In this document: piece after piece, positions 1 through 25,935 of the stretch | How positions within the stretch are numbered: the first letter of the stretch is position 1 | Layout of the letters: every line of letters begins with the position of its first letter | Sequence record: KY979108 | Reading direction: 5' to 3' (one strand) | Origin: Escherichia phage ECP1 | Length of the DNA stretch: 40,469 nucleotides | The notes under the pieces: generated by a model | Told to the model about the DNA's origin: nothing | What the model saw: only the letters and a program-made list of their open reading frames with translations | Databases searched by the model: none | Made by a program: the position numbers and the translations under genes

Positions 1-15
1 AAGCAGGAGTGAAAC

Positions 16-333
16 ATGGGCGTCGTTAAGTTAGCTGATTACAGGCATAACCCTGTACAACATCAGGAGGCATCCAGTATGGGGTATGTCTCTATACACC
101 GCCAGTTTATGGACAGCAGGCTCTATAAGGACTCTCAGGCAGTACATCTTTGGCTTCACTTAATCCTCAAGGCTAATCACGAATCTACTGTCGTCAATAC
201 GGATATCGGTCCGATAACTGTTGATCGCGGTCAGATGATAACTGGACGCCCGTCGCTGGTCAGAGAAACATTCATCCCCGACAACAAAGTTCGGAGCTTA
301 TTACGGACTTTTGAGTCCGAAAGGGATGCTTAA
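16..333 (+). CDS. Replication initiator (lambda O-like), N-terminal part; appears split from the 311..907 ORF by a frame change
   Basis: AGGAG Shine-Dalgarno 7 nt upstream of ATG at 16; sits just downstream of cII in the circular order and upstream of the iterons and DnaB helicase; frame 1 stops at 331-333 while the overlapping frame is open from 242. Confidence 0.5.
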   Translation: MGVVKLADYRHNPVQHQEASSMGYVSIHRQFMDSRLYKDSQAVHLWLHLILKANHESTVVNTDIGPITVDRGQMITGRPSLVRETFIPDNKVRSLLRTFESERDA

Positions 334-907
334 TATTTGCTCGATGGGGAAGAAATTTAGCCTGTTTACAATCGTTAAATATGACGATTTTCAGGCAAAA
401 AATTGTCCAACGGTTGTCCAACAGTTGTCCAACGCAAACACCAGTAATGGCGCGGCTCTCAGCGGAGATTGTCCAACGGTTGTCCAACAGTTGTCCATAA
501 ACAATAATATAAATAATATCTCTAATACTGACGTATTAGAGAGTGCCACAGCAGACAAAAAGTCTGACAAGAAAAAACCTTCCGTTAGCTGTCAGGATGT
601 TGTCGATGCTTACCACGAAATCCTTCCTGAAGCGCCAAGAATCCGCGCACTGAATGACAAGCGTAAAAACCAGATCCGAACGTTCTGGCGCAAAGCCGGA
701 GTGATAACCCGCCAGCTTGACGGGCATGGGTTCACGATGCAGGACTGGAGAAATTATTTGAGCTACGTAGGCGAAAATTGCCGATGGATGTTCGAAGAGC
801 GTCCAAACCATCAACGCGGAACTGTCTGGCACAAAAAGGGATTTGATTTCCTGCTTAACGATAATACCTACCTGAAAGTTCGTGAGGGTGAACACGATGA
901 CCGATAA
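311..907 (+). CDS. Replication initiator (O-like), iteron-encoding and C-terminal part; frame open from 242, TTG start reported by the ORF track
   Basis: ORF contains the direct-repeat iterons at 403..499 (translated as repeated PTVVQQLS), as the lambda O gene contains ori; immediately precedes the DnaB helicase. Confidence 0.5.
   Translation: MSPKGMLNICSMGKKFSLFTIVKYDDFQAKNCPTVVQQLSNANTSNGAALSGDCPTVVQQLSINNNINNISNTDVLESATADKKSDKKKPSVSCQDVVDAYHEILPEAPRIRALNDKRKNQIRTFWRKAGVITRQLDGHGFTMQDWRNYLSYVGENCRWMFEERPNHQRGTVWHKKGFDFLLNDNTYLKVREGEHDDR
403..499. repeat. Replication origin iterons: six copies of TTGTCCAAC (last TTGTCCATA) at 11-bp spacing, in two triplets separated by 35 bp
   Basis: Copies read directly at 403, 414, 425, 469, 480, 491. 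Confidence 0.8.
500..545. promoter_or_regulatory. AT-rich segment with perfect 24-bp palindrome TCTCTAATACTGACGTATTAGAGA (519..542), likely the ori unwinding element
   Basis: Lies directly downstream of the iterons; origin architecture of iterons plus AT-rich region. Confidence 0.5.
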
Positions 908-2333
908 TTTTTATGCGCCGCCCCATAGCATCGAGGCAGAGCAGGCGGTGATTGGTGGATTGCTTCTGGATGATGACAGCAGTGAGCGCGTCCAGAAAGT
1001 TCTGGCGATGCTGAAGCCTGATTCATTTTACAGCCGACCACACAAAATCATTTTCGAAGAAATAACCAGAATGCACCGTGAGCAAAAGCCAGTAGATGGC
1101 CTGACGCTTTTCGATGAACTGGAGCGTAAATCGTTAACTGTGTCTGTTGGCGGTTTTGCTTATATCGCTGAGATCGCAAAGAACACGCCAAGCGCAGCAA
1201 ACATCGTTGCCTATGCAATGCAGGTTCGTGAAACCGCAATGGAACGCTACGCCATCAACCGCATGACTGAAGCGACGGAATTGCTCTATTCCCGCAACGG
1301 AATGACTGCAACGCAGAAGTACGAAGCTATTCAGTCGATTTTCACGCAACTGACAGACCATGCAAAAACCGGATCGCGTCGCGGCCTTCGTTCATTTGGT
1401 GAGGTCATGGAAGACTGGGTTAGCGACCTTGAGAAGCGATTTGACCCATCAGGCGAACAACGGGGAATGAGCACAGGGATCCCATCGCTGGACAGGATGC
1501 TGTCACCGAAAGGTCTGGTGAAAGGCTCTCTGTTTGTCATTGGCGCTCGCCCTAAGATGGGGAAAACGACGCTATACAGCCAGATGGCAATCAATTGCGC
1601 AGTGCATGAGAAAAAGCCCGCTTTGATGTTCAGCCTTGAAATGCCAGGTGATCAGATACTGGAAAAACTGGTAGGGCAGAAGTCTGGTGTTAACCCGAAT
1701 ATTTTTTACCTTCCGGCGACAAATGACGCTGATGACGGCTATCAGGGTGATTACGATGGTGACTTCAACAGGGCGATCGAAACAGCTAATCGCTTGAGTG
1801 AAATCGACATGCTTTACATCGACGACACGCCGGGATTATCTCTGGCTCAAATCGTCAGCGAAAGCCGTCGAATCAAGCGAGAAAAAGGATGTGTTGGCAT
1901 GATTCTGGTCGATTACCTGACACTAATGACCGCTGAGAAGGCCGATCGCAACGACCTTGCTTACGGCATGATCACCAAAGGACTGAAGAACCTTGCCAAA
2001 GAGCTTGATTGCGTTGTTGTGCTTCTGACGCAGCTTAACCGCGCACTGGAAAGCCGAACCAATAAACGCCCATTACCAAGTGACTCACGAGATACAGGGC
2101 AGATTGAACAGGATTGCGATTATTGGGTCGGGATCCATCGTGAAGGCGCTTTTGATGACAGTGTTCCACCTGGTGAAACTGAACTAATCCTTCGTCTCAA
2201 TCGTCATGGCAATACCGGCACGGTGTATTGCATTCAGGCAAATGGCGCTATTTATGACACAGACCAACAGTCTGCTGAAATGCGCCGACGTGAACGCGAG
2301 GAACCGCAGTCCAAGAAAAAAGGAGGATTCTGA
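897..2333 (+). CDS. Replicative DNA helicase, DnaB family (P22 gene 12 type)
   Basis: About 480 aa translation with DnaB-like N-terminus and Walker A GARPKMGKT; GAGGGTG RBS before ATG 897 (ORF track starts at GTG 882). Confidence 0.85.
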   Translation: MTDNFYAPPHSIEAEQAVIGGLLLDDDSSERVQKVLAMLKPDSFYSRPHKIIFEEITRMHREQKPVDGLTLFDELERKSLTVSVGGFAYIAEIAKNTPSAANIVAYAMQVRETAMERYAINRMTEATELLYSRNGMTATQKYEAIQSIFTQLTDHAKTGSRRGLRSFGEVMEDWVSDLEKRFDPSGEQRGMSTGIPSLDRMLSPKGLVKGSLFVIGARPKMGKTTLYSQMAINCAVHEKKPALMFSLEMPGDQILEKLVGQKSGVNPNIFYLPATNDADDGYQGDYDGDFNRAIETANRLSEIDMLYIDDTPGLSLAQIVSESRRIKREKGCVGMILVDYLTLMTAEKADRNDLAYGMITKGLKNLAKELDCVVVLLTQLNRALESRTNKRPLPSDSRDTGQIEQDCDYWVGIHREGAFDDSVPPGETELILRLNRHGNTGTVYCIQANGAIYDTDQQSAEMRRREREEPQSKKKGGF

Positions 2334-2361
2334 TGACCATCTACATCACTGAGCTAATAAC

Positions 2362-2392
2362 AGGCCTGCTGGTAATCGCAGGCCTTTTTATT
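2362..2392 (+). terminator. Rho-independent terminator hairpin AGGCCTGC/GCAGGCCT followed by T-run
   Basis: Inverted repeat plus TTTTTATTT immediately after the helicase stop. Confidence 0.5.
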
Positions 2393-2409
2393 TGGGGGAG
2401 AGGGAAGTC

Positions 2410-2850
2410 ATGAAAAAACTAACCTTTGAAATTCGATCTCCAGCACATCAGCAAAACGCTATTCACGCGGTACAGCAAATTCTTCCAGACCCAACCAAAC
2501 CAATCGTAGTAACCATTCAGGAACGCAACCGCAGCTTAGACCAGAATCGAAAGCTTTGGGCTTGCCTTGGTGACGTCTCTCGTCAGGTTGAATGGCATGG
2601 TCGCTGGCTGGATGCAGAAAGCTGGAAGTGCGTGTTTACCGCAGCATTAAAGCAGCAGGACGTTGTTCCTAACCTTGCCGGGAATGGCTTTGTGGTAATA
2701 GGCCAGTCAACCAGCAGGATGCGTGTAGGCGAATTTGCGGAGCTATTAGAGCTTATACAGGCATTCGGTACAGAGCGTGGCGTTAAGTGGTCAGACGAAG
2801 CGCGACTGGCTCTCGAATGGAAAGCGCGATGGGGAGATCGGGCTGCATGA
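2410..2850 (+). CDS. ninB: NinB recombination protein
   Basis: Translation MKKLTFEIRSPAHQQNAIHAVQQ... matches lambda NinB as I remember it; RBS before ATG 2410. Confidence 0.85.
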   Translation: MKKLTFEIRSPAHQQNAIHAVQQILPDPTKPIVVTIQERNRSLDQNRKLWACLGDVSRQVEWHGRWLDAESWKCVFTAALKQQDVVPNLAGNGFVVIGQSTSRMRVGEFAELLELIQAFGTERGVKWSDEARLALEWKARWGDRAA

Positions 2851-3374
2851 CTATCAAATCAAATACGCCAGCACACGACAAGGACTGCTGGCAAACGCCG
2901 CTTTGGCTTTTTGATGCACTGGATATTGAGTTTGGATTCTGGCTTGATTCGGCAGCGAGCGACAAAAATGCTCTGTGCGCTCACTGGCTAACTGAGGCTG
3001 ACGACGCGCTAAATTCTGAGTGGATAAGCCACGGTGCAATCTGGAATAACCCACCGTACAGCAATATCAGGCCGTGGGTGGAAAAAGCCGCTGAGCAGTG
3101 CATACAACAGCGACAGACGGTAGTGATGCTTGTGCCAGAGGATATGTCAGTCGGATGGTTCAGCAAGGCTCTGGAGAGTGTCGACGAAGTTCGCATTATC
3201 ACTGATGGACGGATTAATTTTATCGAACCATCGACGGGGCTGGAGAAGAAGGGAAACAGCAAAGGCTCCATGCTGCTGATTTGGCGACCTTTCATCAGTC
3301 CTCGACGGATGTTTACTACCGTATCCAAAGCGGCATTGATGGCGATCGGGCAGGGCGTCAGGAGGGCTGCATGA
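2847..3374 (+). CDS. Phage DNA N6-adenine methyltransferase
   Basis: NPPY motif (WNNPPYS) typical of N6-adenine methyltransferases; ATG overlaps the ninB stop (ATGA). Confidence 0.75.
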
Positions 3375-3547
3375 GGCGACAGCGACGAAGTATCACCGAC
3401 ATCATCTGCGAAAACTGCAAATACCTTCCAACGAAACGCTCCAGAAATAAACCCAAGCCAATCCCGAAAGAATCTGACGTAAAAACCTTCAACTACACGG
3501 CTCACCTGTGGGATATCCGGTGGCTAAGACATCGTGCGAGGAAATGA
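3371..3547 (+). CDS. ninE: NinE-like small protein
   Basis: Small basic protein in the nin-region position, [20 protein letters not shown]...; start overlaps the methyltransferase stop. Confidence 0.6.
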
Positions 3548-3951
3548 CAATGCTTTTAATTCAACCTGGATTTGGACTTAGCATCAAAAAAGGCCACATG
3601 TTTGGCGAGAAAGAGTCACAACGAAAAATGGTGTCTATCCGGTTGCCATTTATCAGTATTTATTGGCTAAACAGGGAGGCAACAAATTATTGGTATACAT
3701 GCGCCAGAGCAGCATTTAACGACCCTGACTGGTTTGTGAAAAACCACCACGCAGTTCGTCAGGCAAAGAGAAAGGCCAACATGACATACATGAAGGCGTA
3801 TCAAAAAGCATGGAAAGAACACCGCGATCGATACCAGCAAGACATGGAAAAGCTTGAATCAGAAAACATGGAATTAAGACGAAAGCTTGGTGAAGCAAAA
3901 CGAGACATTGATGCTTACAAGCGACTTTTTAATGGTGAAAGCCATGCTTAG
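3544..3951 (+). CDS. Hypothetical nin-region protein with coiled-coil C-terminus
   Basis: ORF with translationally coupled start; no recognisable family. Confidence 0.4.
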
Positions 3952-4120
3952 CCCATCCCAATCCCTCCAATACCAGAAAGAAAGCGTCGAGCGGGCTTTA
4001 ACGTGCGCTAACTGCGGTCAGAAGCTGCATGTGCTGGAAGTTCACGTGTGTGAGCACTGCTGCGCAGAGCTGATGAGCGATCCGAATAGCTCAATGTACG
4101 AGGAAGAAGACGATGAGTGA
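3944..4120 (+). CDS. ninF: NinF-like zinc-ribbon protein
   Basis: [40 protein letters not shown]... with CxxC...CxxC pattern, lambda NinF-like. Confidence 0.65.
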   Translation: MLSPSQSLQYQKESVERALTCANCGQKLHVLEVHVCEHCCAELMSDPNSSMYEEEDDE

Positions 4121-4382
4121 TTTCTCTGAGCTTATTTCCTTCAAAAAAGACAGAGAAGAAATGCGGACTGAATCTGTCTATTACGTTCAACACCGGAATA
4201 AACGCTCTGTGCTTGATCAGGAGCTGGTTATTACCGGAGACCTGGCATTCAGAACATATAAGGCCAGCATGGAAATGAAGGATTTCCCTAAATGTGGTTC
4301 TGAAAGAGAAGCCGCGTTAAAGCTGGCTGAGTGGATGCAGAGAATGGCTGCTGCAATTGAGAATTACTGGAGTGAACCATAA
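4113..4382 (+). CDS. Hypothetical phage protein
   Basis: ORF coupled to neighbours in the nin operon. Confidence 0.4.
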   Translation: MSDFSELISFKKDREEMRTESVYYVQHRNKRSVLDQELVITGDLAFRTYKASMEMKDFPKCGSEREAALKLAEWMQRMAAAIENYWSEP

Positions 4383-4672
4383 TGGCTAACCTACGCAAAG
4401 AAGCACGCGGCAGAGAATGCCAGGTACGTATTTACGGCATATGCAATGGCAATCCTGAAACTACAGTTCTGGCACATTACCGGATGGCTGGAATTTGCGG
4501 AGCGGGAATGAAGCCTGACGACCTGATCGGTGCATGGGCTTGTAGCGCGTGTCACGATGAAATCGACCGACGCACCCATAACCTCGACAACAAAGACGCC
4601 AGACTTTACCACCTCGAAGGCGTGATCAGGACGCAGGCGATACTGCTGAAGGAGGGAAAGATTAAGTCATGA
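4382..4672 (+). CDS. Small cysteine-rich nin-region protein (possibly DUF1364-like)
   Basis: 96 aa with CxxC and HxxxxC spacing; family assignment is from memory only. Confidence 0.45.
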   Translation: MANLRKEARGRECQVRIYGICNGNPETTVLAHYRMAGICGAGMKPDDLIGAWACSACHDEIDRRTHNLDNKDARLYHLEGVIRTQAILLKEGKIKS

Positions 4673-5031
4673 ACGAATATCAGTTTGTGCTTCCATACCC
4701 GCCGTCGGTGAATACCTACTGGCGAAGACGGGGAAGCCAATACTACATCAGCGATAAAGGCCAGAAATACCGAAAAGACGTTCAGCAAATCATCCGCCAA
4801 CTCAAGTTAGACATTTTCACCAAATCACGACTCCGCATCAAAGTCATCGCAGACGTTCCAGACTCCCGCCGCCGCGACCTCGATAACATCCTGAAAGGTT
4901 TACTCGACTCTCTTATCCACGCCGGATTTGCGGAAGACGACGAGCAATTCGATGACATTCGCGTAATTCGTGGCGTGAAAGTACCAGGCGGAAGGCTTGG
5001 AATAAAAATCACCGAACTGGAGAGCGTATGA
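4669..5031 (+). CDS. rusA: RusA Holliday junction resolvase
   Basis: 120 aa, MNEYQFVLPYPPSVNTYW... with acidic catalytic residues typical of RusA. Confidence 0.85.
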   Translation: MNEYQFVLPYPPSVNTYWRRRGSQYYISDKGQKYRKDVQQIIRQLKLDIFTKSRLRIKVIADVPDSRRRDLDNILKGLLDSLIHAGFAEDDEQFDDIRVIRGVKVPGGRLGIKITELESV

Positions 5032-5216
5032 ACGCCACAATTCAAACGATACCAGAGCTTCTTATCCAGACACGAGGCAATCAGACCGAAGTGGCGAGGA
5101 TGCTTTCCTGCGCAAGAGGAACAGTGCTCAAGTACAACCGAGACAGCAAAGGCGAGCGTCATGTAATAGTTAACGGCGTCCTGATGGTCAAACAGGGCAA
5201 GAGGGGAAGACGATGA
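5028..5216 (+). CDS. ninH: NinH-like protein
   Basis: 62 aa with GNQTEVARMLSCARGTV HTH-like motif as in lambda NinH. Confidence 0.7.
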   Translation: MNATIQTIPELLIQTRGNQTEVARMLSCARGTVLKYNRDSKGERHVIVNGVLMVKQGKRGRR

Positions 5217-5836
5217 GACTCGAAAGCGTAGCTAAATTTCATTCGCCAAAAAGCCCGATGATGAGCGACTCACCACGGGCTACGGCTTCTGACTCTCTTT
5301 CCGGTACTGATGTGATGGCTGCTATGGGGATGGCGCAATCACAAGCCGGATTCGGAATGGCTGCATTCTGCGGTAAGCATGAACTCAGCCAGAACGACAA
5401 ACAAAAGGCTATCAACTATCTGATGCAATTTGCACACAAGGTATCGGGGAAATACCGTGGCGTTGCAAAGCTTGAAGGAAATACTAAGGCAAAGGTACTG
5501 CAAGTGCTCGCAACATTCGCTTATGCGGATTATTGCCGTAGTGCCGCGACGCCGGGCGCAAGATGCAGAGATTGCCACGGTACAGGCCGTGCGGTTGATA
5601 TTGCCAAAACAGAGCTGTGGGGGAGAGTTGTTGAGAAAGAATGCGGAAGATGCAAAGGTGTCGGCTATTCAAGAATGCCAGCAAGTGCAGCATATCGCGC
5701 TGTGACGATGCTAATCCCAAACCTTACCCAACCCACCTGGTCACGCACTGTTAAGCCGCTGTATGACGCTCTGGTGGTGCAATGCCACAAGGAAGAGTCA
5801 ATCGCAGACAACATTTTGAACGCGGTCACACGTTAG
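5213..5836 (+). CDS. Q: Late-gene antiterminator Q
   Basis: Position immediately upstream of PR' and the lysis cassette; zinc-finger-like CRDCHGTG...CGRCKG motif. Confidence 0.75.
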   Translation: MRLESVAKFHSPKSPMMSDSPRATASDSLSGTDVMAAMGMAQSQAGFGMAAFCGKHELSQNDKQKAINYLMQFAHKVSGKYRGVAKLEGNTKAKVLQVLATFAYADYCRSAATPGARCRDCHGTGRAVDIAKTELWGRVVEKECGRCKGVGYSRMPASAAYRAVTMLIPNLTQPTWSRTVKPLYDALVVQCHKEESIADNILNAVTR

Positions 5837-5878
5837 CAGCATGATTGCAACGGATGGCAACATATTAACGGCACAATA

Positions 5879-5907
5879 TTGACTTATTGAATAAAGTTGG
5901 GTAAATT
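5879..5907 (+). promoter_or_regulatory. Late promoter PR' (-35 TTGACT, 17-bp spacer, -10 TAAATT) with adjacent qut region
   Basis: Near-identical to the lambda PR' sequence as remembered. Confidence 0.75.
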
Positions 5908-5942
5908 TGACTCAACGATGGATAAATGCACTCGTTAAATAA

Positions 5943-5976
5943 AGCCCTGAGTTAATAGCTCGGGGCTTTTTGCGTT
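5943..5976 (+). terminator. tR'-like terminator closing a short leader RNA
   Basis: 9-bp stem (AGCCCTGAG/CTCGGGGCT) followed by TTTTT. Confidence 0.65.
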
Positions 5977-6269
5977 TTAATCACGACCTTTCTGAAAGCA
6001 CATCAAACCAAATACCAGACAGACAAAAATAATCACCTTATCCGCTGTGGCTACGGTGCGGTGTGCTTTGCATAAAAGAAAACCAGCGCAATGGCTGGCT
6101 TCGTGAAAGCGGGTGGCAAGAGGTTGCGCTAACAACCTCCTGCCGTTTTGCCCGTGCATATCGGTCACGAACAAATCTGATTACTAAACACAGTAGCCTG
6201 GATTTGTTCTATCAGTAACCGACCATATTCCTAATTAAATAGAGCAAATCCCCTTATTGGGGGTAAGAC

Positions 6270-6593
6270 ATGAAGATGCCAGAAAAAAATGACCTGTTAG
6301 CCGCCATTCTCGCGGCAAAGGAACAAGGCATCGGGGCAATCCTTGCGTTTGCAATGGCGTACCTTCGCGGCAGATATAATGGCGGTGCGTTTACAAAAAC
6401 AGTAATCGACGCAACGATGTGCGCCATTATCGCCTGGTTCATTCGTGACCTTCTCGGCTTCGCCGGACTAAGTAGCAATCTCGCTTATATAACGAGCGTG
6501 TTTATCGGCTACATCGGTACTGACTCGATTGGTTCGCTTATCAAACGCTTCGCTGCTAAAAAAGCCGGAGTAGAAGATGGTGGAAATCAATAA
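6270..6593 (+). CDS. S: Class I holin S with dual-start motif (Met1-Lys2-Met3)
   Basis: 107 aa, near-identical to lambda S as remembered. Confidence 0.9.
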
Positions 6594-7053
6594 TCAACGT
6601 AAGGCGTTCCTCGATATGCTGGCATGGTCAGAGGGAACTGATAACGGACGTCAGAAAACCAGAAATCATGGTTATGACGTCATTGTAGGAGGAGAGCTAT
6701 TCACTGATTACTCCGATCACCCTCGCAAACTTGTCACGCTAAACCCCAAACTCAAATCAACAGCCGCCGGACGCTACCAGCTTCTTTCCCGTTGGTGGGA
6801 TGCCTACCGTAAGCAGCTTGGCCTGAAAGACTTCTCTCCGAAAAGCCAGGACGCTGTGGCATTGCAGCAGATTAAGGAGCGTGGCGCTTTGCCGATGATT
6901 GATCGTGGTGATATTCGTCAGGCAATTGACCGTTGCAGCAATATCTGGGCTTCACTGCCGGGCGCTGGTTATGGTCAGTTCGAGCATAAGGCTGACAGCC
7001 TGATTGCAAAATTCAAAGAGGCTGGCGGAACGGTCAGAGAGATTGAGGTATGA
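6577..7053 (+). CDS. R: Endolysin R (lytic transglycosylase)
   Basis: 158 aa, near-identical to lambda R as remembered. Confidence 0.9.
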
Positions 7054-7487
7054 GCAGAGTCACCGCGATTATCTCCGCTCTGGTTATCTGCATCATCGTC
7101 TGTCTGTCATGGGCTGTTAATCATTACCGTGATAACGCCATTACCTATAAAGAGCAGCGCGATAAGGCCACATCCACAATCGCTGACATGCAGAAGCGTC
7201 AACGTGATGTAGCAGAACTCGACGCCAGATACACAAAGGAGCTTGCTGATGCTAACGCGACTATCGAAAGTCTCCGTGCTGATGTTTCTGCTGGGCGTAA
7301 GCGCCTGCAAGTCGCCGCCACCTGTGCAAAGTCAACGACCGGAGCCAGCGGCATGGGCGATGGAGAAAGCCCAGGACTTACAGCAGATGCTGAACTCAAT
7401 TATTACCGTCTCCGAAGTGGAATCGACAGGATAACCGCGCAGGTTAACTACCTGCAGGAGTACATCAGGACTCAGTGCCTGAAATAA
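7050..7487 (+). CDS. Rz: Spanin inner-membrane subunit Rz
   Basis: N-terminal TM segment, follows R with overlapping start. Confidence 0.85.
7243..7434 (+). CDS. Rz1: Spanin outer-membrane lipoprotein Rz1, embedded in Rz in the +1 frame
   Basis: Signal peptide with lipobox (LLGVSAC) and proline-rich mature region, fully inside Rz. Confidence 0.75.
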
Positions 7488-7518
7488 TTTTTTTGCAAAT
7501 CACAAAATCCATTTAATG

Positions 7519-7573
7519 AGCCTCGCGATGCGGGGCTTTTTGCAATAAATGCGTACCGCAACGCATGTTTTTT
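7519..7573 (+). terminator. Two tandem rho-independent terminators after the lysis cassette
   Basis: Hairpin AGCCTCGC/GCGGGGCT plus T5 (7519..7546) and hairpin ATGCGT/ACGCAT plus T6 (7549..7573). Confidence 0.55.
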
Positions 7574-7688
7574 ACACCGAACCTGCCCCTTTGGAATGGG
7601 CCTTTGAGGATACCAGTTAGTGCTGGCGAGCCTCGGTGGGCTGGTTTCCTGTGCGGCAAAGGTTCATTTCAAAGAGTAGGTACACGCT

Positions 7689-8186
7689 ATGAAATCATTA
7701 ACCCTCTTCAATCAACCAATTCGTATCGGTGAAGATGGCATGATCTGCCTCACTGATATGTGGAAAGCCAGTGGTAAAAGTGAATCTGAATCGCCTTACC
7801 ACTACCTGCGAAACAAGCAGACCAAAGAGTTCTTAGCCGAGCTGGAGAAAAACCACGAATCTGTGGTTTTTACTGAGCGCGGTGTACACGGTGGAACATA
7901 TGGCGGGAAGTTTGTTGCTTACGATTATGCGGCTTGGTTAAACCCCGGGTTCAAGTACGCGGCCTATAAAGTCCTCGATGACTACTTCACCGGAGAACTT
8001 CAGCATCGCAACAGCTTAAGTGCGCAGCTCAACATGAAATGTCATGAGTTTGACCAGAAGAAAGACATGGCGAGCTTCTGCGGACAAGGGCTGGCAGCAT
8101 GGCGCTATACGAAGCCAGTGTTGGTCGCTGAGATTAACTCCCTGGCTAACCAGCTGCAGATTACGATCCCCGGGCTTCCGGGATGA
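7689..8186 (+). CDS. KilA-N domain protein
   Basis: N-terminal region resembles KilA-N DNA-binding domain pattern. Confidence 0.5.
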   Translation: MKSLTLFNQPIRIGEDGMICLTDMWKASGKSESESPYHYLRNKQTKEFLAELEKNHESVVFTERGVHGGTYGGKFVAYDYAAWLNPGFKYAAYKVLDDYFTGELQHRNSLSAQLNMKCHEFDQKKDMASFCGQGLAAWRYTKPVLVAEINSLANQLQITIPGLPG

Positions 8187-8452
8187 GTGATCGTGTTATT
8201 GAATGCGCCTCCAGAGCGGGGCGCGACTTCTCAGAGTTCATGAAAGGCGAGAAGGGCATGATGGAAGCATTGGCCTCGGTGGATGAGTTTGGCGAGCAGC
8301 TGCGCCTCAACGGCTGTGTCAATCATCACTTTGTTAGCTACATGATGCGGAACTCGATCATGCAGGCATTCATGGACATGGCAAAAGCCGAGAGGAAAGA
8401 AGAGCGCCGGCATAAGCGAGCGGAAGCAAAAGCAAAAGCAAAAGTGAAGTAG
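8183..8452 (+). CDS. Hypothetical protein
   Basis: ORF coupled to the KilA-N gene; lysine/alanine-rich basic C-terminus. Confidence 0.4.
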   Translation: MSDRVIECASRAGRDFSEFMKGEKGMMEALASVDEFGEQLRLNGCVNHHFVSYMMRNSIMQAFMDMAKAERKEERRHKRAEAKAKAKVK

Positions 8453-8613
8453 CCATTACAAAGCTCACCTGCTGGTGGGCTTGATAATGGTTATCCCCAC
8501 AAAAGGATATTCTGTCAAATATCCCGAGTAGGGTATAGACATAACAGCATTCATTCACGGGTTGCCTGTAATAATGCTATAAATGATTACCTTAAAAATA
8601 AAATGGTGATCAT

Positions 8614-9090
8614 ATGCAACGCTTCGTTGAGTCAATCAGAAGGTCTCTACAAACTCAAAATTGGTTTGCTGCAATTTTTATGGCACTAGCTATGCCAGAT
8701 ATTTGTGGGGCTTTGGAAGATCCAGATGCAAATGTCGGAGAAAGGTATAGGGATTGGTTTGCTAGGTATTTAGCACCGAAGTATACGCGTCGCTATGTAC
8801 AGTTTACGGCTCAGGACTGTTACAAATTTCGATGCAAGTGTTTGCATCAGGGATTGGCTGTTCGAGATAATAACGAAAAGTTTTCTTTGACTCCGCCGAT
8901 TCCGCCACATCAATTTCATTTAAACTCATATGATGGCGTAATTCAGTTACAAATCGATCTTCTTTGCGAGGATATATGCTTAGCTGTTGAGGAGTGGGCT
9001 AGAGATGTTGAGGATAACAATGAAGTGCAAAATCGCATATTAGAACTAATCAATATTCATTTCCCTCAAGGGTTTATAGAGTTTCGTTGA
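8614..9090 (+). CDS. Moron-encoded hypothetical protein (158 aa)
   Basis: Distinctly AT-rich ORF relative to flanks, with its own upstream promoter-like region and downstream terminator; no recognisable family. Confidence 0.55.
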   Translation: MQRFVESIRRSLQTQNWFAAIFMALAMPDICGALEDPDANVGERYRDWFARYLAPKYTRRYVQFTAQDCYKFRCKCLHQGLAVRDNNEKFSLTPPIPPHQFHLNSYDGVIQLQIDLLCEDICLAVEEWARDVEDNNEVQNRILELINIHFPQGFIEFR

Positions 9091-9124
9091 AACATATCAT
9101 ACAGCATTTTATTTCCTTCCTATG

Positions 9125-18433: not shown

Positions 18434-18879
18434 TTGAGACGAGCCTCGATTTTTCCGGGTTAAATGACATCGCAAAGGATCTGGAGGCGCTTAGCCGCGC
18501 TGAAAACAATAAGGTTCTTCGTGATGCCACCCGCGCCGGCGCGGAAGTGCTTAAGGAAGAAGTGATCGCCCGCGCTCCGGTGCGTACCGGGAAACTGAAA
18601 AAAAACGTGGTGGTGGTGACCCAAAAAAGCCGTCGCCGCGGGGAAATTTCTTCCGGCGTCCATATTCGTGGCGTTAACCCGCGCACCGGAAACAGCGATA
18701 ACACGATGAAGGCTAATAACCCGAGAAACGCCTTTTACTGGCGATTCGTTGAAATGGGAACTGCCAACATGCCGGCACATCCTTTCATTCGTCCAGCGTT
18801 TGACGTCCGACAGGAGCAGGCGACAGAGGTCGCGATCAGGCGCATGAACCAGGCCATCGATGAGGCATTAAGCAAATGA
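18430..18879 (+). CDS. HK97 gp10-like tail-component protein
   Basis: Synteny and size. Confidence 0.6.
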   Translation: MIETSLDFSGLNDIAKDLEALSRAENNKVLRDATRAGAEVLKEEVIARAPVRTGKLKKNVVVVTQKSRRRGEISSGVHIRGVNPRTGNSDNTMKANNPRNAFYWRFVEMGTANMPAHPFIRPAFDVRQEQATEVAIRRMNQAIDEALSK

Positions 18880-19223
18880 CGGAAGACGATCTCTATCCTC
18901 TGCTGGAACCGCTGGCCGGAGGGCAGGTTTATCCCTACGTTGCGCCGCTCGGCAGTGACGGGAAGCCTTCAGTCTCTCCGCCCTGGGTAATTTTCTCGAT
19001 TATTACCGACGTGGCCGCAGACGTTCTTTGCGGTCAGGCTGAATCTGCCGTTTCTGTGCAGGTTGATGTCTATTCCAGCACCATCACTGAAGCGCGCACG
19101 ATCAGGAATATGGCGCTTGATGCTCTGCAGGTGCTGAAGCCGGAAAGCATTGTTAAAACGCCGGGCTATGAGCCTGATCTGCGCTATCACCGGGCAACGC
19201 TCGAATTTCAGGTAACCGTTTAA
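18876..19223 (+). CDS. Tail completion protein
   Basis: Synteny and size. Confidence 0.55.
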   Translation: MTEDDLYPLLEPLAGGQVYPYVAPLGSDGKPSVSPPWVIFSIITDVAADVLCGQAESAVSVQVDVYSSTITEARTIRNMALDALQVLKPESIVKTPGYEPDLRYHRATLEFQVTV

Positions 19224-19276
19224 CTTTTCCCACCATAACAGACCGCTCTGGCGGTCTTTTTTTATCTGGAGAAATC

Positions 19277-19747
19277 ATGACCAGTAAGTATGAAGTTACA
19301 AAGGGGATGACCTTTGCCGTCTCCGACGCACCCGTAACCGCCGAGGATTTTAATGCCTTAGGTTTCCCGGGGGATGGTGTTACCTGGCTGGAAGCGGCCT
19401 GTGCAACAAAGGAGATCACCTTCACGGGCGGTCAAAAAGGGGATATTGACGTAACCACGCTTTGCTCAACTGAACAGGAGCAAACCAACGGCCTCGCCGC
19501 GCCTGCTGAAATGAGCATTACCCGTAACTGGGTTGGCGATGAAGCAGCGCAGGAGGCACTGCAGACCGCTTACGAAAATGACGAACTGCGTGCGCTGCGT
19601 GTGGTATTCCCGTCTGGCAACGGTTTCTACGTGCTGGTGGAAGTACGCCAGAGCTCATGGTCTGCCGCAACATCTTCCGTTGTTGGCGCTACCTATTCTC
19701 TGCGTGTACGCGGCAAACCTAAACGCATCTACGCGTCTGGTTCCTGA
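19277..19747 (+). CDS. Major tail protein
   Basis: Position before the chaperone pair and tape measure; bracketed by hairpin/T-run elements. Confidence 0.75.
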   Translation: MTSKYEVTKGMTFAVSDAPVTAEDFNALGFPGDGVTWLEAACATKEITFTGGQKGDIDVTTLCSTEQEQTNGLAAPAEMSITRNWVGDEAAQEALQTAYENDELRALRVVFPSGNGFYVLVEVRQSSWSAATSSVVGATYSLRVRGKPKRIYASGS

Positions 19748-19801
19748 GCGGCTTCGGCCGCTTTTTTTATCCCTCCGATCATGTAACAAGAGAAAAATGA
19801 A

Positions 19802-20203
19802 ATGCCGCAAAAAACATCACAGAATTCATTACGCAACGTGGCGCTTACAGCATCGAAAGCCTATCGCACCAAAGAAGGTATCACGGTCCCTGAATGGGAT
19901 GGCGCAAAGGTAACGCTGCGTGAACCCTCTGGCGATGCATGGGTGAAATTCCGGGAGATCGTTAATCCCCAGCTCGCCGAGGGCGAAGAGGCACCGACGC
20001 TGACGGAGGCGGAAAAGTTTCTGCGTAACAAAAAGGCTGATGTGGTTCTGTTTATTGACGTTCTGCTGGATGAAAACGGCGAGCGAGTATTCAGCGATGA
20101 GGATCAGGAGCAGGTATCTAAAATTTATGGTCCTGTGCACTCCCGCCTGCTGGCTCAGGCCCTCAACCTCGGAATGAGCCAGGAAGAAGCGGGAAAGCCG
20201 TAA
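19802..20203 (+). CDS. G: Tail assembly chaperone G
   Basis: Ends just after slippery heptamer GGGAAAG (20191..20197). Confidence 0.8.
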   Translation: MPQKTSQNSLRNVALTASKAYRTKEGITVPEWDGAKVTLREPSGDAWVKFREIVNPQLAEGEEAPTLTEAEKFLRNKKADVVLFIDVLLDENGERVFSDEDQEQVSKIYGPVHSRLLAQALNLGMSQEEAGKP

Positions 20204-20490
20204 AGCAGCCGCTGACCTTCTTCCTGATGTCGCTGGCGCTCCGGTTGGGACGTACTCTCCACGAACTGCGCCAGAACATGACCGCCAGCGAGCTCAAAAT
20301 GTGGATCGAGTTCGACCGCATCAGTCCGATTGGTGACTGGCGCGCCGATGCTCAGGCGGCGCAGATCTCCGTTGCAATGCTGAACTCTCAGGGCGGGAAA
20401 TTCACCATTCCTGACGTGATGCTGAAATGGGGTGAGCAGGAAGAAGGCGCTGAAGTCTCTGAACTTGAAGAATGGATGTCCAGTCTTTGA
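20191..20490 (+). CDS. Tail assembly chaperone T segment, expressed as a G-T fusion by -1 ribosomal frameshift
   Basis: The -1 frame from GGGAAAG is open through 20490 and runs into the 20227 ORF. Confidence 0.75.
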   Translation, partial: GKAVKQPLTFFLMSLALRLGRTLHELRQNMTASELKMWIEFDRISPIGDWRADAQAAQISVAMLNSQGGKFTIPDVMLKWGEQEEGAEVSELEEWMSSL

Positions 20491-20524
20491 TGCCCGCGGC
20501 TGCGGGCTTTTTTATGGGTGAAAT

Positions 20525-23500
20525 ATGGCAACGCTGCGCGAGCTAATCATCAAAATTTCGGCGAACTCTTCTTCTTTTCAGTCAGAGATCGCCAGAGCGT
20601 CCCGCATGGGAACCGATTACTACCGCACTATGGAACAGGGCGGGAAAAAAGCTGCAGCGGCCACGCGTGAAACTCAGCGGTCTTTGGCTGACCTGAATTC
20701 TCAGCTTGCAACCGTGCGATCCTCTGCTGCCGGGCTTGCCGGTGCGTGGGCTGGTGCATTTGCCACGCATCAGCTGATTCAGTTTGCCGACACGTGGAAC
20801 CAGTTGAATGGGCGTCTTCGCCTTGCGTCCTCTTCCAGTGAGGATTACGTGCAATCCCAGCGCGTGCTGATGGAGATTAGCCAGCGCACCGGAACATCCC
20901 TCGAGGCAAACAGCAACCTGTACAGCCGAATTGCGCAGTCCCTGCGTGATGCCGGTTACGCTTCTGCTGACGTCGCAAAAGTTACGGAAACCGTAGCAAC
21001 CTCACTGAAGCTGTCTGGCGCCAGTACCGAAGAGGCGAGTTCTGTTATCACCCAGCTTAGCCAGGCACTTGGCTCAGGCGTTTTGCGAGGCGAAGAATTT
21101 AACTCCATCATGGAGAACGGTGGACGCCTGGCGAAACTGCTGGCTGATGGGCTGGGTACCACTGTTGGTGGCCTGCGAAATATGGCCAACAACGGCGAGC
21201 TGACGACCAACAAGATCGTCCCGCTGCTGACCAACGTTGAGATCCTCCGTAAAGAATTCGACACCCTTCCTGCATCCATCAGCGGATCTGCACAGAAAGT
21301 GCAAAACGCCTTCCTTGCATGGGTTGGCGGGGCGAACGATGCGGTCGGCGCATCATCAACGCTTTCCGGCGTGCTGGATGGTCTGGCGAATAACATCGAT
21401 GATGTGGCGAACACCGCAGGCATTCTGGTTGGTGTTGGCCTCGCTCGTTATTTTGGCAACATGGTCGGCAGCGTTGCTCAGTCAACCCGGGCAGTCCTCG
21501 CTAATACGGCCGCCGAGGTCGCGCTGGCGCAGGCTCAGGTTCGCGGAGCTCAGGTTAGCGTTGCTGCTGGTCGCCAGGCTGTTTACCGCGCTCAACAGGC
21601 GCGCGCAGCGGCGACGAGTATTGAGGCTCAGATTGTCGCTGAGCGTAATCTTGCTGCTGCTCAGGCATCACTGAATACGGCGCTTGCTGGCAGGACTTCG
21701 GCCGTTAATAACCTCACCAATACAGCCTCGGTGATGTCCCGCCTGGGTAGTGGCGTTCTTGGCATTCTCGGTGGCTGGCCTGGAGTGATTATCGGTGCCG
21801 GCGCTGCGATGTATGGCCTTTATCAGCATACCCAGCAGGTGCACCGTGAGGCGGTAGGTTTTGCCAACAACCTTGACGAGATCAACACCAAGCTCCAGCA
21901 GATGTCGGTGCTTGGCCTGCGTTCGACCGCGGCTGATGCCCGTACATCTTTACAGGCGCAAAAACAGGACCTGGCCGACCTCGACTCTCAGATTGCGAAG
22001 GTGAAAGACAGTCTTAAGGCGGTTGATCAAATCCAGCAGGACTACAACCGCCATCCGACGCTGACCCTGATCAACACCTTCATGGACCAGGCCGACATCA
22101 CGGCCAAAAACATCGAGCTTACCGATAAGCTGAACCAGCTTGAGTACCAGCGCGAACAGGCAGCCTCAAAAGTCGAGCAAACGCAGAAGCTGGTTAATCA
22201 GGCCAGTGATCTGGCCACACAAAAGGCTATCGAACAGGCTGGCGCTGTCTCAATCCTGAAAGGTGCGTATGACCTGCTTAACCGCTCGATGTCAGCGACC
22301 GCTGGCGCCAAGCCGCCGCAATATGCCGGGCCCGTCGTCTCACTGGCGAATGCAACGCCTCAACAGCAAACTGCACTGGAGCGCTCGCGCCGCGATAATG
22401 AGCTAGCCAGCTTAAGCGGATTAGAGAAACTCCATCAGCAGCACGTCTACGAAGCAGAAGACCTGCAGCTGACGGGGGCGCTTTACACCCAGTACATCTA
22501 CAACAAGGATCAGGCAGCCAAAAAGGATGCAGCAGCTGCAGAGGCAAAAAAAACCTCTACCGCCGCCTCGAAAGCGCAGAGTAAAGCCGAGCGCGAAGCG
22601 GCCAGCACCGCCGAACAGTATTCCCGGAAAATGGCCGATCTGAGCGTGGCTATCGATGTGCAACGCGTCCGGGCCACGGAAGGAGAAAAAGCCTCTGAGC
22701 TTTACGCGGCGTCGCACCAGGCAGGCACTAAATGGACCGACGAGCAGCGCAGAGCAATCCAGGCATCATCAACAGAGCTGGCAAAATGGACGCAAAAAGC
22801 CGACGAGAACGTGCGCAAGCAGCGCGAACAGGCTGATGCCCTGAAGGATTTAACTGAAGCGGCCCGAAAGTTCAGGGATGAGGCGACGCTGACAACCGAA
22901 ACCGCAGGCATGAGTGATCGTCAGCGCAGCCGGTTCGATGAGACGCAACAGATCGACCGTGTTTTTGCTAAAACGGACGGCGGCACCGAGGCCATCGCAC
23001 AGCGCGCCGCAGCCCTCGATGCTCTGGAGGAGAAATACAAGGCTATTGCAGCAGCTGAAGCGGATTGGATGTTCGGTGTATCACGCGGCTATGCCAACTG
23101 GTTTGATGAAATCAGTGATGTATCCGGAACGGTTTCTGACGGGGTGAAAACCACACTCGACAGCGCGTTTGGTAACGTCACCTCAATGCTCGAAGGCAAT
23201 AAAGTTAGCTGGAAATCGTGGGGTATTTCTGTCCTGCAGATTATCGAAAAAGTGGCTCTGCAGATGGCGGTGGTTAGCGCGATGGGTGGGGCCTCTTCCG
23301 GTTCTGGCATCTTTGGCTCACTCATCGGCAGTGTAGGCAGCTTCTTCGGGGGCGGGGCGGGAGCATCAGCCAGCACCGGTACGGCGGTTTCCAGTTACGG
23401 ATCGAACTTCCAGTTTAACGCCAAAGGCGGCGTTTATGACTCCCCCTCTCTGAGCGCTTTCAGTAATGGGATCGTCAGAAACCCCACCATGTTCGCTTTC

Positions 23501-23806
23501 GCAAAAGGCGGGGCCGGAATCATGGGCGAGGCTGGGCCGGAGGCGATCATGCCGCTTACCCGCGCGCCGGATGGTTCTCTCGGCGTTCGTGCGGTCGGAG
23601 GTGGCGGCGGTCAGTCTGTATCTTCGGCGCCACAGGTTTATATCACCATCGATGGCAACGGCAACACTCAAACTCAGGCCTCACCAGGCCTTGAGCAATT
23701 TGGTGCCGAGGTCGGGGAATTTGTTGATCGACGTTATAAGCAGAATGTGATGCGTGACATTCGTCCCGGCGGCGACATCTGGAACGCAATGAAAGGAACC
23801 CGATAA
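20525..23806 (+). CDS. H: Tail tape measure protein
   Basis: 1093 aa, alanine/glutamine-rich coiled-coil protein downstream of the chaperone pair. Confidence 0.9.
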   Translation: MATLRELIIKISANSSSFQSEIARASRMGTDYYRTMEQGGKKAAAATRETQRSLADLNSQLATVRSSAAGLAGAWAGAFATHQLIQFADTWNQLNGRLRLASSSSEDYVQSQRVLMEISQRTGTSLEANSNLYSRIAQSLRDAGYASADVAKVTETVATSLKLSGASTEEASSVITQLSQALGSGVLRGEEFNSIMENGGRLAKLLADGLGTTVGGLRNMANNGELTTNKIVPLLTNVEILRKEFDTLPASISGSAQKVQNAFLAWVGGANDAVGASSTLSGVLDGLANNIDDVANTAGILVGVGLARYFGNMVGSVAQSTRAVLANTAAEVALAQAQVRGAQVSVAAGRQAVYRAQQARAAATSIEAQIVAERNLAAAQASLNTALAGRTSAVNNLTNTASVMSRLGSGVLGILGGWPGVIIGAGAAMYGLYQHTQQVHREAVGFANNLDEINTKLQQMSVLGLRSTAADARTSLQAQKQDLADLDSQIAKVKDSLKAVDQIQQDYNRHPTLTLINTFMDQADITAKNIELTDKLNQLEYQREQAASKVEQTQKLVNQASDLATQKAIEQAGAVSILKGAYDLLNRSMSATAGAKPPQYAGPVVSLANATPQQQTALERSRRDNELASLSGLEKLHQQHVYEAEDLQLTGALYTQYIYNKDQAAKKDAAAAEAKKTSTAASKAQSKAEREAASTAEQYSRKMADLSVAIDVQRVRATEGEKASELYAASHQAGTKWTDEQRRAIQASSTELAKWTQKADENVRKQREQADALKDLTEAARKFRDEATLTTETAGMSDRQRSRFDETQQIDRVFAKTDGGTEAIAQRAAALDALEEKYKAIAAAEADWMFGVSRGYANWFDEISDVSGTVSDGVKTTLDSAFGNVTSMLEGNKVSWKSWGISVLQIIEKVALQMAVVSAMGGASSGSGIFGSLIGSVGSFFGGGAGASASTGTAVSSYGSNFQFNAKGGVYDSPSLSAFSNGIVRNPTMFAFAKGGAGIMGEAGPEAIMPLTRAPDGSLGVRAVGGGGGQSVSSAPQVYITIDGNGNTQTQASPGLEQFGAEVGEFVDRRYKQNVMRDIRPGGDIWNAMKGTR

Positions 23807-23808
23807 TT

Positions 23809-24147
23809 ATGGCCATTGAAACTTTCACCTGGTGCCCACGGATTAACGCGGAGGCTGATACAAGTTTCCGCGTCAGAAAAGCCCAGTTTGGCGATGGATA
23901 TGAGCAGGTTTCAGGGGATGGATTGAACACCAGAACCCAGCAATGGACGCTCAACTTCACTGGCAACGAAACCTACATTTCTGCCATTAAATCTTTTCTC
24001 GACAGGCATGAAGGAACGAAAGCCTTTCAATGGAAGCCGCCGCTCGAGCCTTTGGGTTTGTATCGTTGCGAAACGTATAAACCCACCGGGCTGGGTGCGG
24101 GAAAATTCAACCTTGAAGCAACATTCATCCAGGCATTTAAACCATGA
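23809..24147 (+). CDS. M: Minor tail protein M
   Basis: Size and synteny. Confidence 0.8.
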   Translation: MAIETFTWCPRINAEADTSFRVRKAQFGDGYEQVSGDGLNTRTQQWTLNFTGNETYISAIKSFLDRHEGTKAFQWKPPLEPLGLYRCETYKPTGLGAGKFNLEATFIQAFKP

Positions 24148-24902: not shown

Positions 24903-24903
24903 T

Positions 24904-25614: not shown

Positions 25615-25661
25615 CAAACTGTCACTGATACTATCGTGTAGTACACAGCAAGGAGAACGAT

Positions 25662-25886: not shown

Positions 25887-25935
25887 GAGCGTAAATTAAC
25901 AAACCACCTACGGGGGGTTTTTTTATGGGGGCAGC

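What the first reader, a model, noticed from the sequence alone, without database searches (positions are those of the whole stretch)
16..907. Replication initiator split across two frames around the iteron origin
The O-like N-terminal ORF (frame 1, stop at 331) and the iteron-containing ORF (another frame, open from 242 to 907) overlap by about 90 nt. A single frame change in 242..333 would give one ~297-aa initiator with the iterons inside it, as in lambda O. This is either a sequencing or assembly indel, a pseudogenised initiator, or a genuinely split gene.
Basis: seen in the sequence. Interest (0 to 1): 0.45.

Follow-up and report, generated by a model that had tools for sequence, protein, structure and literature searches.

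The report
One-base frameshift in phage replication initiator
The replication-initiator gene of this lambda-like phage (Escherichia phage ECP1) is cut into two reading frames by one extra C that no related sequence carries, so it is a sequencing error or a very recent knockout, not a new gene design.

Summary
ORF 16..333 and the frame open from 242 to 907 are the two halves of one gene.

- **The lesion.** Alignment with Sf6 gene 43, HK75 O and an E. coli prophage shows one extra C at 317/318 (GAGTCGAAAGG becomes GAGTCCGAAAGG). Removing it gives an 891-nt, 296-aa initiator.
- **It is private to this record.** The CC form was absent from every collection searched, and all 105 relatives aligned across the site have a single C.
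- **The repaired gene looks functional.** The repaired protein exists letter for letter in E. coli assemblies. Ten such genes differ from the repaired gene only by 1-7 synonymous changes.
- **Source.** The window is the complete, circularly permuted genome of Escherichia phage ECP1. GenBank/RefSeq lists the halves as two proteins (84 and 193 aa).
- **Where the break falls.** It sits between the recognition helix and the wing of a predicted winged-helix domain, in the most conserved stretch of the family.
- **The locus.** It is the known HK022 O / Sf6 gp43 / phage L gp18-type initiator. Six 11-bp iterons and an AT-rich stretch lie inside the gene, and a DnaB-type helicase gene follows.

Most likely a record error (about 0.55), otherwise a very recent null mutation (about 0.35). 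A working split gene is unlikely. Low interest.

The parts
5..9 (+). Shine-Dalgarno-like AGGAG, 6 nt upstream of the initiator start codon ATG16
   Evidence: Read directly from the sequence. Relatives annotate the same start codon.
16..333 (+). N-terminal fragment of the initiator: 101 native residues, then 4 out-of-frame residues (ERDA) and TAA. It holds the helices of the winged-helix domain but lacks the wing. GenBank annotates 79..333 as an 84-aa 'replication initiation O-like' protein (ASJ79455.1).
   Evidence: PHROG 345 positions 1-94; model: helix 89-101 ends at the break.
317..318 (+). CC where every relative has a single C. This one-base insertion causes the frameshift at codon 102.
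   Evidence: Alignment A1. All 105 HSPs of relatives have a gap here. The CC form was found 0 times in five collections.
326..907 (+). C-terminal fragment of the initiator (native residues 104-296), in frame 2, which is open from 242. ATG326 overlaps the stop of the first fragment (ATGCTTAA). It encodes the wing of the winged-helix domain, a disordered linker and the C-terminal domain. GenBank annotates it as a 193-aa 'DNA replication protein' (ASJ79456.1 / YP_009908515.1).
   Evidence: (PHROG 345 positions 96-292).
403..435 (+). First iteron triplet: three 11-bp direct repeats TTGTCCAACGG / TTGTCCAACAG / TTGTCCAACGC
   Evidence: The same 11-bp repeat (TGTCCAACGGA, six copies) is described in phage L gene 18 (PMC8022706). 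Sf6 annotates a rep_origin here.
469..497 (+). Second iteron triplet (469, 480, 491; the last copy keeps only the TTGTCCA core)
498..545 (+). AT-rich stretch (20-25% GC) with a 10-bp inverted repeat at 519-528 / 533-542. Presumed DNA-unwinding element of the origin.
   Evidence: The function is inferred by analogy with the lambda origin.
897..2333 (+). DnaB-family replicative helicase gene (478 aa, P22 gene 12 type), overlapping the end of the initiator gene by 11 nt. Intact.
   Evidence: Pfam DnaB 1.5e-31 and DnaB_C 2.9e-60. Same layout in all relatives.
40337..40469 (+). First 133 nt of the small HK022 gp53-like ORF. It continues seamlessly into window 1..29 and overlaps the initiator start, which shows the window is a closed circular permutation.
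   Evidence: the 162-nt ORF lies at the same offset in relatives.

Best explanation
Window 16..907 is the origin-binding replication initiator gene of Escherichia phage ECP1, of the HK022 O / Sf6 gp43 / phage L gp18 type. In relatives it is a single 296-aa protein. By prediction and homology, that protein has an N-terminal winged-helix domain (about residues 20-125), a disordered linker (about 132-187) and a C-terminal domain (188-296). The DNA that encodes the linker carries the origin: six 11-bp iterons and an AT-rich stretch. By inference, the protein binds its own iterons, opens the AT-rich DNA and brings in the phage's DnaB-type helicase encoded just downstream. In this record one extra C at 317/318 shifts the frame at codon 102. 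The most likely reading is that the extra C is a base-calling or assembly error in the deposited sequence, and that the real phage makes the normal single protein.
For: Shown:
- The only length difference from Sf6, HK75 and an E. coli prophage over 1..1000 is the C at 317/318.
- All 105 relatives aligned across the site lack it.
- The CC form is absent from 24 phage records, 144 E. coli complete genomes, IMG/VR (where the single-C form is in 101 contigs), GTDB species genomes and JGI metagenomes.
- The repaired protein exists exactly in the public collection (P0285, counted on 45 contigs and indexed in 85 blocks of the collection).
- Ten genes encoding that protein differ from the repaired window gene by 1-7 nucleotides, all synonymous. 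There is therefore no sign of relaxed selection.
- The window is a closed circular assembly of a deposited phage genome.
- Window 12600-31013 aligns with plaque-forming HK542 over 18,414 bp without a single gap, and the structural, lysis, Q, integrase and helicase ORFs have the lengths seen in HK542 and other close relatives.
- The break cuts a predicted winged-helix domain between its recognition helix (89-101) and its wing (strands 105-110 and 114-119), in the most conserved block of the family.
- The record looks lightly curated: it starts arbitrarily inside a gene, and the two halves are listed as separate proteins without comment.

From established knowledge: lambda O and P22 gene 18 are essential for lytic growth. 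The related SPP1 G38P is described as essential in PMC5615212.
Against: - The insertion turns a single C into CC. It is not in a long homopolymer, where platform errors concentrate.
- The assembly otherwise looks clean. There is no other private indel in about 11 kb covered by at least 5 relatives, or in the 18.4 kb shared with HK542. Nothing therefore points to an error-prone data set.
- Real frameshifts of this gene do occur in prophages.
- No reads and no publication on ECP1 were available, so how the DNA was obtained is unknown.
Confidence: 0.55

Rival explanations
1. The extra C is real. It is a very recent frameshift that inactivates the initiator. The sequenced DNA would then come from a replication-defective variant, for example DNA from an induced lysogen rather than a plaque-purified stock. 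Alternatively the phage was propagated on a host whose resident prophage supplies the same initiator in trans.
For: - The assembly has no other private indels, and the site is not a long homopolymer.
- Independent natural frameshifts occur in this gene. L093 has a 1-nt deletion in an A-run.
- A one-iteron (11-bp) deletion gives 118-aa and 171-aa products seen on 47-49 contigs, and L095 has only two iterons.
- 144 of 5426 complete E. coli genomes carry this region at 95% identity or more, so a complementing resident prophage is possible.
Against: - Every other gene checked is intact.
- There is no nonsynonymous change relative to a widespread intact allele, so any real lesion must be extremely young.
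- A closed circular assembly of a named phage implies enough replicated DNA to sequence.
- The variant is seen in no other assembly.
Confidence: 0.35
2. The extra C is real and the phage is still viable. Either the two fragments are both made and reassemble into a working initiator, with the second fragment produced by re-initiation at ATG326, which overlaps the stop (ATGCTTAA). Or a low level of +1 ribosomal frameshifting in 242..333 restores a full-length protein.
For: - ATG326 lies 2 nt upstream of TAA 331-333, a layout compatible with translational coupling.
- The break falls in a predicted loop (residues 102-104) between helix and wing, where fragment complementation is conceivable.
- Only residues K102 and G103 would be missing from the two fragments.
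- The rare codon AGG (322-324) and an AAAGGG stretch lie just upstream of the stop.
Against: - The arrangement is not conserved anywhere.
- G103 and M104 are invariant, and the flanking block is the most conserved in the family.
- By eye, there is no recognisable +1 site where the P-site tRNA could re-pair.
- No good ribosome-binding spacing precedes ATG326.
- All of this is inference. Nothing was tested.
Confidence: 0.07
3. The two ORFs are a conserved two-gene design of this replication module: a separate DNA-binding protein and a separate helicase-recruiting protein.
For: GenBank/RefSeq lists two proteins. PHROGs holds a 127-aa family (phrog_24933) that matches only residues 170-296.
Against: - 89 of 90 full-length relatives have one ORF.
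- All 120 best homologues from Escherichia, Shigella, Salmonella, Klebsiella and Serratia are single proteins, nearly all 274-318 aa.
- The boundary at codon 102 lies inside a domain, whereas N-domain matches in distant homologues run to about residue 128.
- The other split forms found have different boundaries and are explained by iteron deletions.
Confidence: 0.02

Closest known systems
Sf6 gene 43 / HK542, HK75, HK022-type 'O' initiators of lambdoid coliphages
   Same: The same gene: 99% protein identity after repair. It has the same iterons, the same small upstream ORF, the same overlapping DnaB-type helicase gene, and a rep_origin annotated at the same place in Sf6.
   Different: Those genes are single 891-nt ORFs. 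The window has one extra C at 317/318. It also has G to A at 423 and 489 (R136Q, R158Q), both shared with an intact allele found in E. coli.
Phage L gene 18 and the gp18 of P22-like Salmonella phages such as ST160, with gene 12 helicase
   Same: Phage L gene 18 has six copies of the 11-bp repeat TGTCCAACGGA inside the gene, proposed as the origin, and its partner is a DnaB-type helicase (PMC8022706). ST160 gp18 is 82% identical over residues 23-296.
   Different: The N-terminal 20 residues and the host genus differ. Those genes are uninterrupted.
Phage lambda O protein and ori-lambda
   Same: The same logic: the origin (iterons plus an AT-rich stretch) lies inside the initiator gene, between an N-terminal DNA-binding part and a C-terminal recruiting part (PMC8022706; model).
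   Different: No Pfam Phage_rep_O match. The window has six 11-bp iterons instead of four of about 20 bp. The partner is a DnaB-family helicase instead of the P loader that borrows host DnaB.
Bacillus phage SPP1 G38P replisome organiser (DnaD-like N-terminal domain)
   Same: Detectable homology of the N-terminal domain: 27.9% identity over residues 20-127, E 1e-5, plus PHROG 'DnaD-like helicase loader' matches. G38P binds the origin and starts helicase recruitment (PMC5615212).
   Different: SPP1 uses a separate loader (G39P). The C-terminal domains are unrelated and the iterons differ.

Membership tests
HK022 O / Sf6 gp43 / phage L gp18-type initiator (PHROG 345) | Collinear, end-to-end match to the family profile | tested here: met
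   The repaired protein matches 1-296 to profile 1-292 of 297, E 1.6e-85. As encoded, ORF1 matches 1-94 and ORF2 matches 96-292.
HK022 O / Sf6 gp43 / phage L gp18-type initiator (PHROG 345) | One uninterrupted ORF of about 274-318 aa | tested here: not met
   The window has two frames because of the extra C at 317/318. 89 of 90 relatives are intact. Homologues are 274, 296 or 318 aa.
HK022 O / Sf6 gp43 / phage L gp18-type initiator (PHROG 345) | 11-bp iterons (TGTCCAACGG) in triplets inside the gene, followed by AT-rich DNA | tested here: met
   Six copies at 403-497 and 20-25% GC at 481-540. The same repeat is described in phage L.
HK022 O / Sf6 gp43 / phage L gp18-type initiator (PHROG 345) | DnaB-family helicase gene immediately downstream and overlapping | tested here: met
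   Gene at 897..2333, with Pfam DnaB and DnaB_C matches. Same order in all loci inspected.
HK022 O / Sf6 gp43 / phage L gp18-type initiator (PHROG 345) | Binds its iterons and supports origin-dependent replication | not testable with these tools
   Needs DNA-binding and ori-plasmid replication assays.
Lambda O family (Pfam PF04492 Phage_rep_O) | Match to the Pfam model | tested here: not met
   No match at E <= 0.01 for the repaired protein or for either fragment. No NCBIfam match either.
Lambda O family (Pfam PF04492 Phage_rep_O) | Partner is a lambda P-type loader that recruits host DnaB | tested here: not met
   The downstream gene is itself a DnaB-family helicase.
SPP1 G38P / DnaD-like replisome-organiser N-terminal domain | Sequence similarity of the N-terminal domain | tested here: met
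   tblastn to SPP1 gene 38: residues 20-127, 27.9% identity, E 1e-5. PHROG 2514 and 186 match at 2e-24 and 2e-16.
SPP1 G38P / DnaD-like replisome-organiser N-terminal domain | Winged-helix fold | tested here: met
   AlphaFold model, pLDDT 85-95 over residues 30-120. The best PDB matches are all winged-helix DNA-binding proteins, but with weak E-values of 0.03-0.1.
Programmed frameshift or conserved split gene | The two-frame arrangement is conserved in relatives | tested here: not met
   The CC form is in 0 of 24 phage records, 0 of 144 E. coli genomes, and 0 matches in IMG/VR, GTDB genomes and metagenomes. 105 of 105 aligned relatives have a single C.
Programmed frameshift or conserved split gene | Recognisable +1 shift site where the P-site tRNA can re-pair, with a stimulatory element | not tested
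   Inspected only by eye in 242..333. No prfB-like CUU-UGA site was seen. GCU-UAA-U with an upstream AAAGGG is at best a weak resemblance.

The most novel reading that the evidence does not exclude
The extra C is real and ECP1 is a viable phage. Its initiator would then be made as two polypeptides, with the second produced by termination and re-initiation at the overlapping ATGCTTAA. The two would reassemble across the loop between the recognition helix and the wing of the winged-helix domain. That would be a natural example of a split origin-binding protein.
Probability: 0.04. Interest if true: 0.45.

Novelty: already known. Interest (0 to 1): 0.1.

Why it matters
The main value is for database quality. 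ECP1 is the exemplar of an ICTV species (Wongtaivirus ECP1). Its RefSeq record lists an essential initiator as two proteins (YP_009908514.1 and YP_009908515.1) without flagging a frameshift. Such fragments enter protein clusters and family libraries as if they were genes. Anyone using ECP1 as a reference should treat 16..907 as one gene with a suspect base at 317/318. The biology of the locus, an origin embedded in the initiator gene followed by a DnaB-type helicase, is already described for Sf6, HK022, HK620 and phage L.

Tried and rejected
- **Family and structure libraries.** Pfam and NCBIfam gave no family for the initiator, only a sub-threshold DUF7376 match. A sequence search of the PDB found nothing. 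Foldseek against the PDB gave only generic winged-helix regulators with weak E-values.
- **Other copies of the CC variant.** I searched phage records, E. coli complete genomes, IMG/VR, GTDB species genomes and JGI metagenomes. All were negative.
- **A near-identical prophage as a natural control.** A search of E. coli complete genomes with window 31000-40469 found none covering more than 55%.
- **Literature on ECP1.** No paper was found. Hits for 'phage ECP1' refer to an unrelated Enterobacter N4-like phage.
- **RNA genes.** No Rfam family and no tRNA in the window. The promoter/terminator scan of 1..1200 showed only iteron-derived consensus matches.
- **An ENA metagenome contig with the same 193-aa product.** It is simply cut off 2 nt before ATG326, so it says nothing about the site.
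- **Rejected: conserved two-gene design.** See the rival explanations.
- **Rejected: a generally error-ridden assembly.** The window has no other private indels. The scattered 1-nt differences from mEp506 fall where that record's own genes are split while the window's are intact.

Full report
**What is in the sequence.** ORF 16..333 (frame 1, 105 aa) ends at TAA 331-333. Frame 2 is open from 242 to TAA 905-907, so the two frames overlap by 92 nt. The two ORFs match the same protein family one after the other. ORF1 covers positions 1-94 of PHROG 345 'replication initiation O-like' (E 5e-17). ORF2 covers positions 96-292 of 297 (E 2.7e-60).

**Where the frame breaks.** The first 1000 bases are 98-99.5% identical to the replication region of many lambdoid phages and E. 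coli prophages, including HK75, HK629, HK106, mEp234 and Sf6. In every one of those hits, 1000 window bases align to 999 bases of the record. Alignment with Sf6, HK75 and an E. coli prophage places the single gap at 317/318. The relatives read GAGTCGAAAGG and the window reads GAGTCCGAAAGG. In the relatives the gene is one 891-nt ORF (296 aa), annotated as gene 43 protein, replication protein O or DNA replication protein. It overlaps a small upstream ORF and a downstream DnaB-like helicase gene. Deleting one C from the window gives a 296-aa protein that matches PHROG 345 from end to end (E 1.6e-85).

**The insertion is private.**
- An 81-nt query centred on the site found 24 phage records and 144 complete E. 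coli genomes. All have 80 nt there and none has CC.
- An exact pattern with CC had no match in IMG/VR, in one genome per GTDB species, or in JGI metagenome contigs.
- The single-C pattern is in 101 IMG/VR contigs.
- In a BLAST of the window against all fetched loci, 105 of 105 alignments across the site have the gap.
- Of 90 relatives that cover the whole gene, 89 have an intact ORF. The one exception (L093) has its own 1-nt deletion in an A-run.

**Source of the window.** The 193-aa product of 326..904 is, letter for letter, ASJ79456.1 / YP_009908515.1 'DNA replication protein [Escherichia phage ECP1]', on a contig of 40,469 bp, which is the window's length. The 84-aa product of 79..333 is ASJ79455.1 / YP_009908514.1 'replication initiation O-like', and the helicase is ASJ79457.1. 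ECP1 is the exemplar of the species Wongtaivirus ECP1 in Hendrixvirinae. The window is circularly closed. The small gp53-like ORF starts at 40337 and runs seamlessly into 1..29. The public record therefore already carries the split, annotated as two genes and not flagged. I found no paper on this phage.

**Quality of the rest of the genome.** Window 12600-31013 aligns with plaque-forming phage HK542 over 18,414 bp at 99.4% identity with no gap. Window 1-2850 has exactly one gap, the C at 317/318. In about 11 kb around the replication region covered by five or more relatives, there is no other indel that all relatives disagree with. The ORFs for the terminase subunits, portal, protease, capsid, tail proteins, tape measure, J, Q, holin, endolysin, Rz and integrase have the lengths seen in HK542, and the helicase has the 1437-nt length of its relatives. 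The initiator is thus the only visibly broken gene.

**No sign of decay.** The repaired protein exists exactly in the public collection (P0285). It is counted on 45 contigs and indexed in 85 blocks of the collection, all in E. coli. In ten such loci, from different lambdoid prophages, the gene differs from the repaired window gene by 1-7 nucleotides, all synonymous. One locus (L108) differs by a single base. The lineage was therefore under purifying selection right up to the insertion. The insertion is either an artefact or very young.

**What the gene is and how it works.**
- An AlphaFold model of a 99%-identical intact homologue, built on 44 diverse sequences, was confident over two domains.
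- The N-terminal domain spans about residues 20-125, with helices at 24-32, 35-38, 40-52, 78-85 and 89-101, and a two-stranded wing at 105-110 and 114-119.
- A low-confidence stretch at 132-187 separates it from a helical C-terminal domain at 188-296.
- The best PDB matches to the N-domain are all winged-helix DNA-binding proteins, though with weak E-values.
- Distant homologues match either about residues 22-130 or about 170-296, which supports two modules.
- The N-domain is detectably related to the origin-binding replisome organiser G38P of Bacillus phage SPP1 (27.9% identity, E 1e-5; function in PMC5615212).
- The DNA encoding the low-confidence linker holds six 11-bp direct repeats (403, 414, 425, 469, 480, 491), followed by a 20-25% GC stretch with a 10-bp inverted repeat.
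- The same repeat, six copies of TGTCCAACGGA, is described inside phage L gene 18 as the likely origin (PMC8022706). Sf6 annotates a rep_origin at this place.

By inference from lambda O, P22 gp18/gp12 and SPP1 G38P, the protein binds the iterons in its own gene, the AT-rich DNA opens, and the C-terminal domain brings in the phage DnaB-type helicase encoded at 897..2333 (Pfam DnaB and DnaB_C).

**Effect of the extra C.** The shift is at codon 102, right after the recognition helix and before the wing. This lies inside the most conserved block of the family, where residues 84-126 are largely invariant, including G103 and M104. The first fragment would be a winged-helix domain without its wing. 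The second, if made at all, would be wing plus linker plus C-terminal domain. As separate chains they would uncouple origin binding from helicase recruitment. ATG326 overlaps the stop of the first fragment (ATGCTTAA), so re-initiation is conceivable. Nothing supports a working split, and no relative has it.

**Error or mutation?** This cannot be settled without reads.
- In favour of an error: the phage was deposited as a complete, circularly assembled genome with every other gene checked intact. Initiators of this kind are essential (established for lambda O and P22 gene 18). There is no nonsynonymous drift. The record looks lightly curated.
- In favour of a real mutation: the site is not a long homopolymer, the assembly is otherwise free of private indels, and real frameshifts of this gene do occur in prophages.
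- I put the error at about 0.55, a real recent null allele at about 0.35, a viable split or read-through at about 0.07, and a conserved two-gene design at about 0.02.

**Comparison with known systems.** This is the known HK022 O / Sf6 gp43 / HK620 O / phage L gp18-type module. It works like lambda O and ori-lambda in layout, but it is not a member of the lambda O Pfam family (no match). Its partner is a helicase, not a P-type loader. Nothing here is new in kind. The value of the finding is as a flag on a reference record.

**Seen along the way.**
- Homologues are 274, 296 or 318 aa long because the 66-nt unit holding one iteron triplet is present one, two or three times, always in frame.
- Loss of a single 11-bp iteron breaks the frame. 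One such variant gives 118-aa and 171-aa products and is seen on 47-49 contigs. A Shigella variant gives a 149-aa product, and locus L095 has only two iterons.
- These natural splits fall at the domain boundary, not at codon 102.

Noticed in passing
window 1..40469 (junction 40469/1): The window is the whole genome of Escherichia phage ECP1 as a closed circular permutation. It starts arbitrarily inside the small gp53-like ORF (40337..40469 plus 1..29). The cos end lies at about 12599/12600, where the HK542 record begins.
   Followed up: yes
window 403..497; proteins P0002 (318 aa), P0023 (296 aa), P0036 (274 aa); loci L016, L101, L024: The 66-nt unit holding one iteron triplet varies in copy number among relatives (3, 6 or 9 iterons). 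The change is always in frame, giving initiators of 274, 296 or 318 aa that differ by a 22-aa repeat (CPTVVQRLSNANTSNGAALSGD).
   Followed up: yes
proteins P0301 + P0272 (47-49 contigs), P0273 (20 contigs, Shigella flexneri), locus L095: Loss of a single 11-bp iteron shifts the frame and splits the initiator at the domain boundary, giving 118-aa and 171-aa products or a 149-aa product. This recurs in E. coli and Shigella prophage lineages. Because 11 is not a multiple of 3, slippage of a single iteron could switch a prophage's initiator off, and a second slip could restore it. I did not test whether it is reversible or selected.
   Followed up: partly
locus L093 (IMG/VR), position equivalent to window 571-577: One relative has its own frameshift in this gene, a 1-nt deletion in the A-run of AAGAAAAAACC. 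About 1-2% of assembled copies of this gene are therefore broken in one way or another.
   Followed up: partly
locus L105 (mEp506, PV340542.1) versus window 17700-30000: The mEp506 record has about ten 1-nt gaps relative to the window, and its tape-measure and tail K genes are annotated in pieces. The window and HK542 have them intact. The errors are probably in that record, not in the window.
   Followed up: partly
window 423 and 489: The middle iteron of each triplet has A where most relatives have G (TTGTCCAACAG, giving R136Q and R158Q). Both changes occur together in the intact allele P0285 found in E. coli. Whether they affect initiator binding is unknown.
   Followed up: partly
window 40312..40344: The conserved 33-mer of the oop promoter and RNA 5' end (ACTGGATCAATCCACAGGAGTAATTATGACAAA), quoted in PMC3349717, is present between cII and the initiator. 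An oop-like antisense RNA over the end of cII is therefore expected. Rfam reported no family here.
   Followed up: no
window 5836..6270: There are no tRNA genes between the Q antiterminator gene and the holin gene. mEp506 and the E. coli P13-6 prophage carry tRNA-Asn and tRNA-Thr at that position.
   Followed up: partly
PHROG family phrog_24933 (127 aa) versus window 523..904: A PHROG family of unknown function corresponds exactly to the C-terminal domain of this initiator (residues 170-296, E 5e-82). It is probably built from truncated or frameshifted annotations such as those described above.
   Followed up: no
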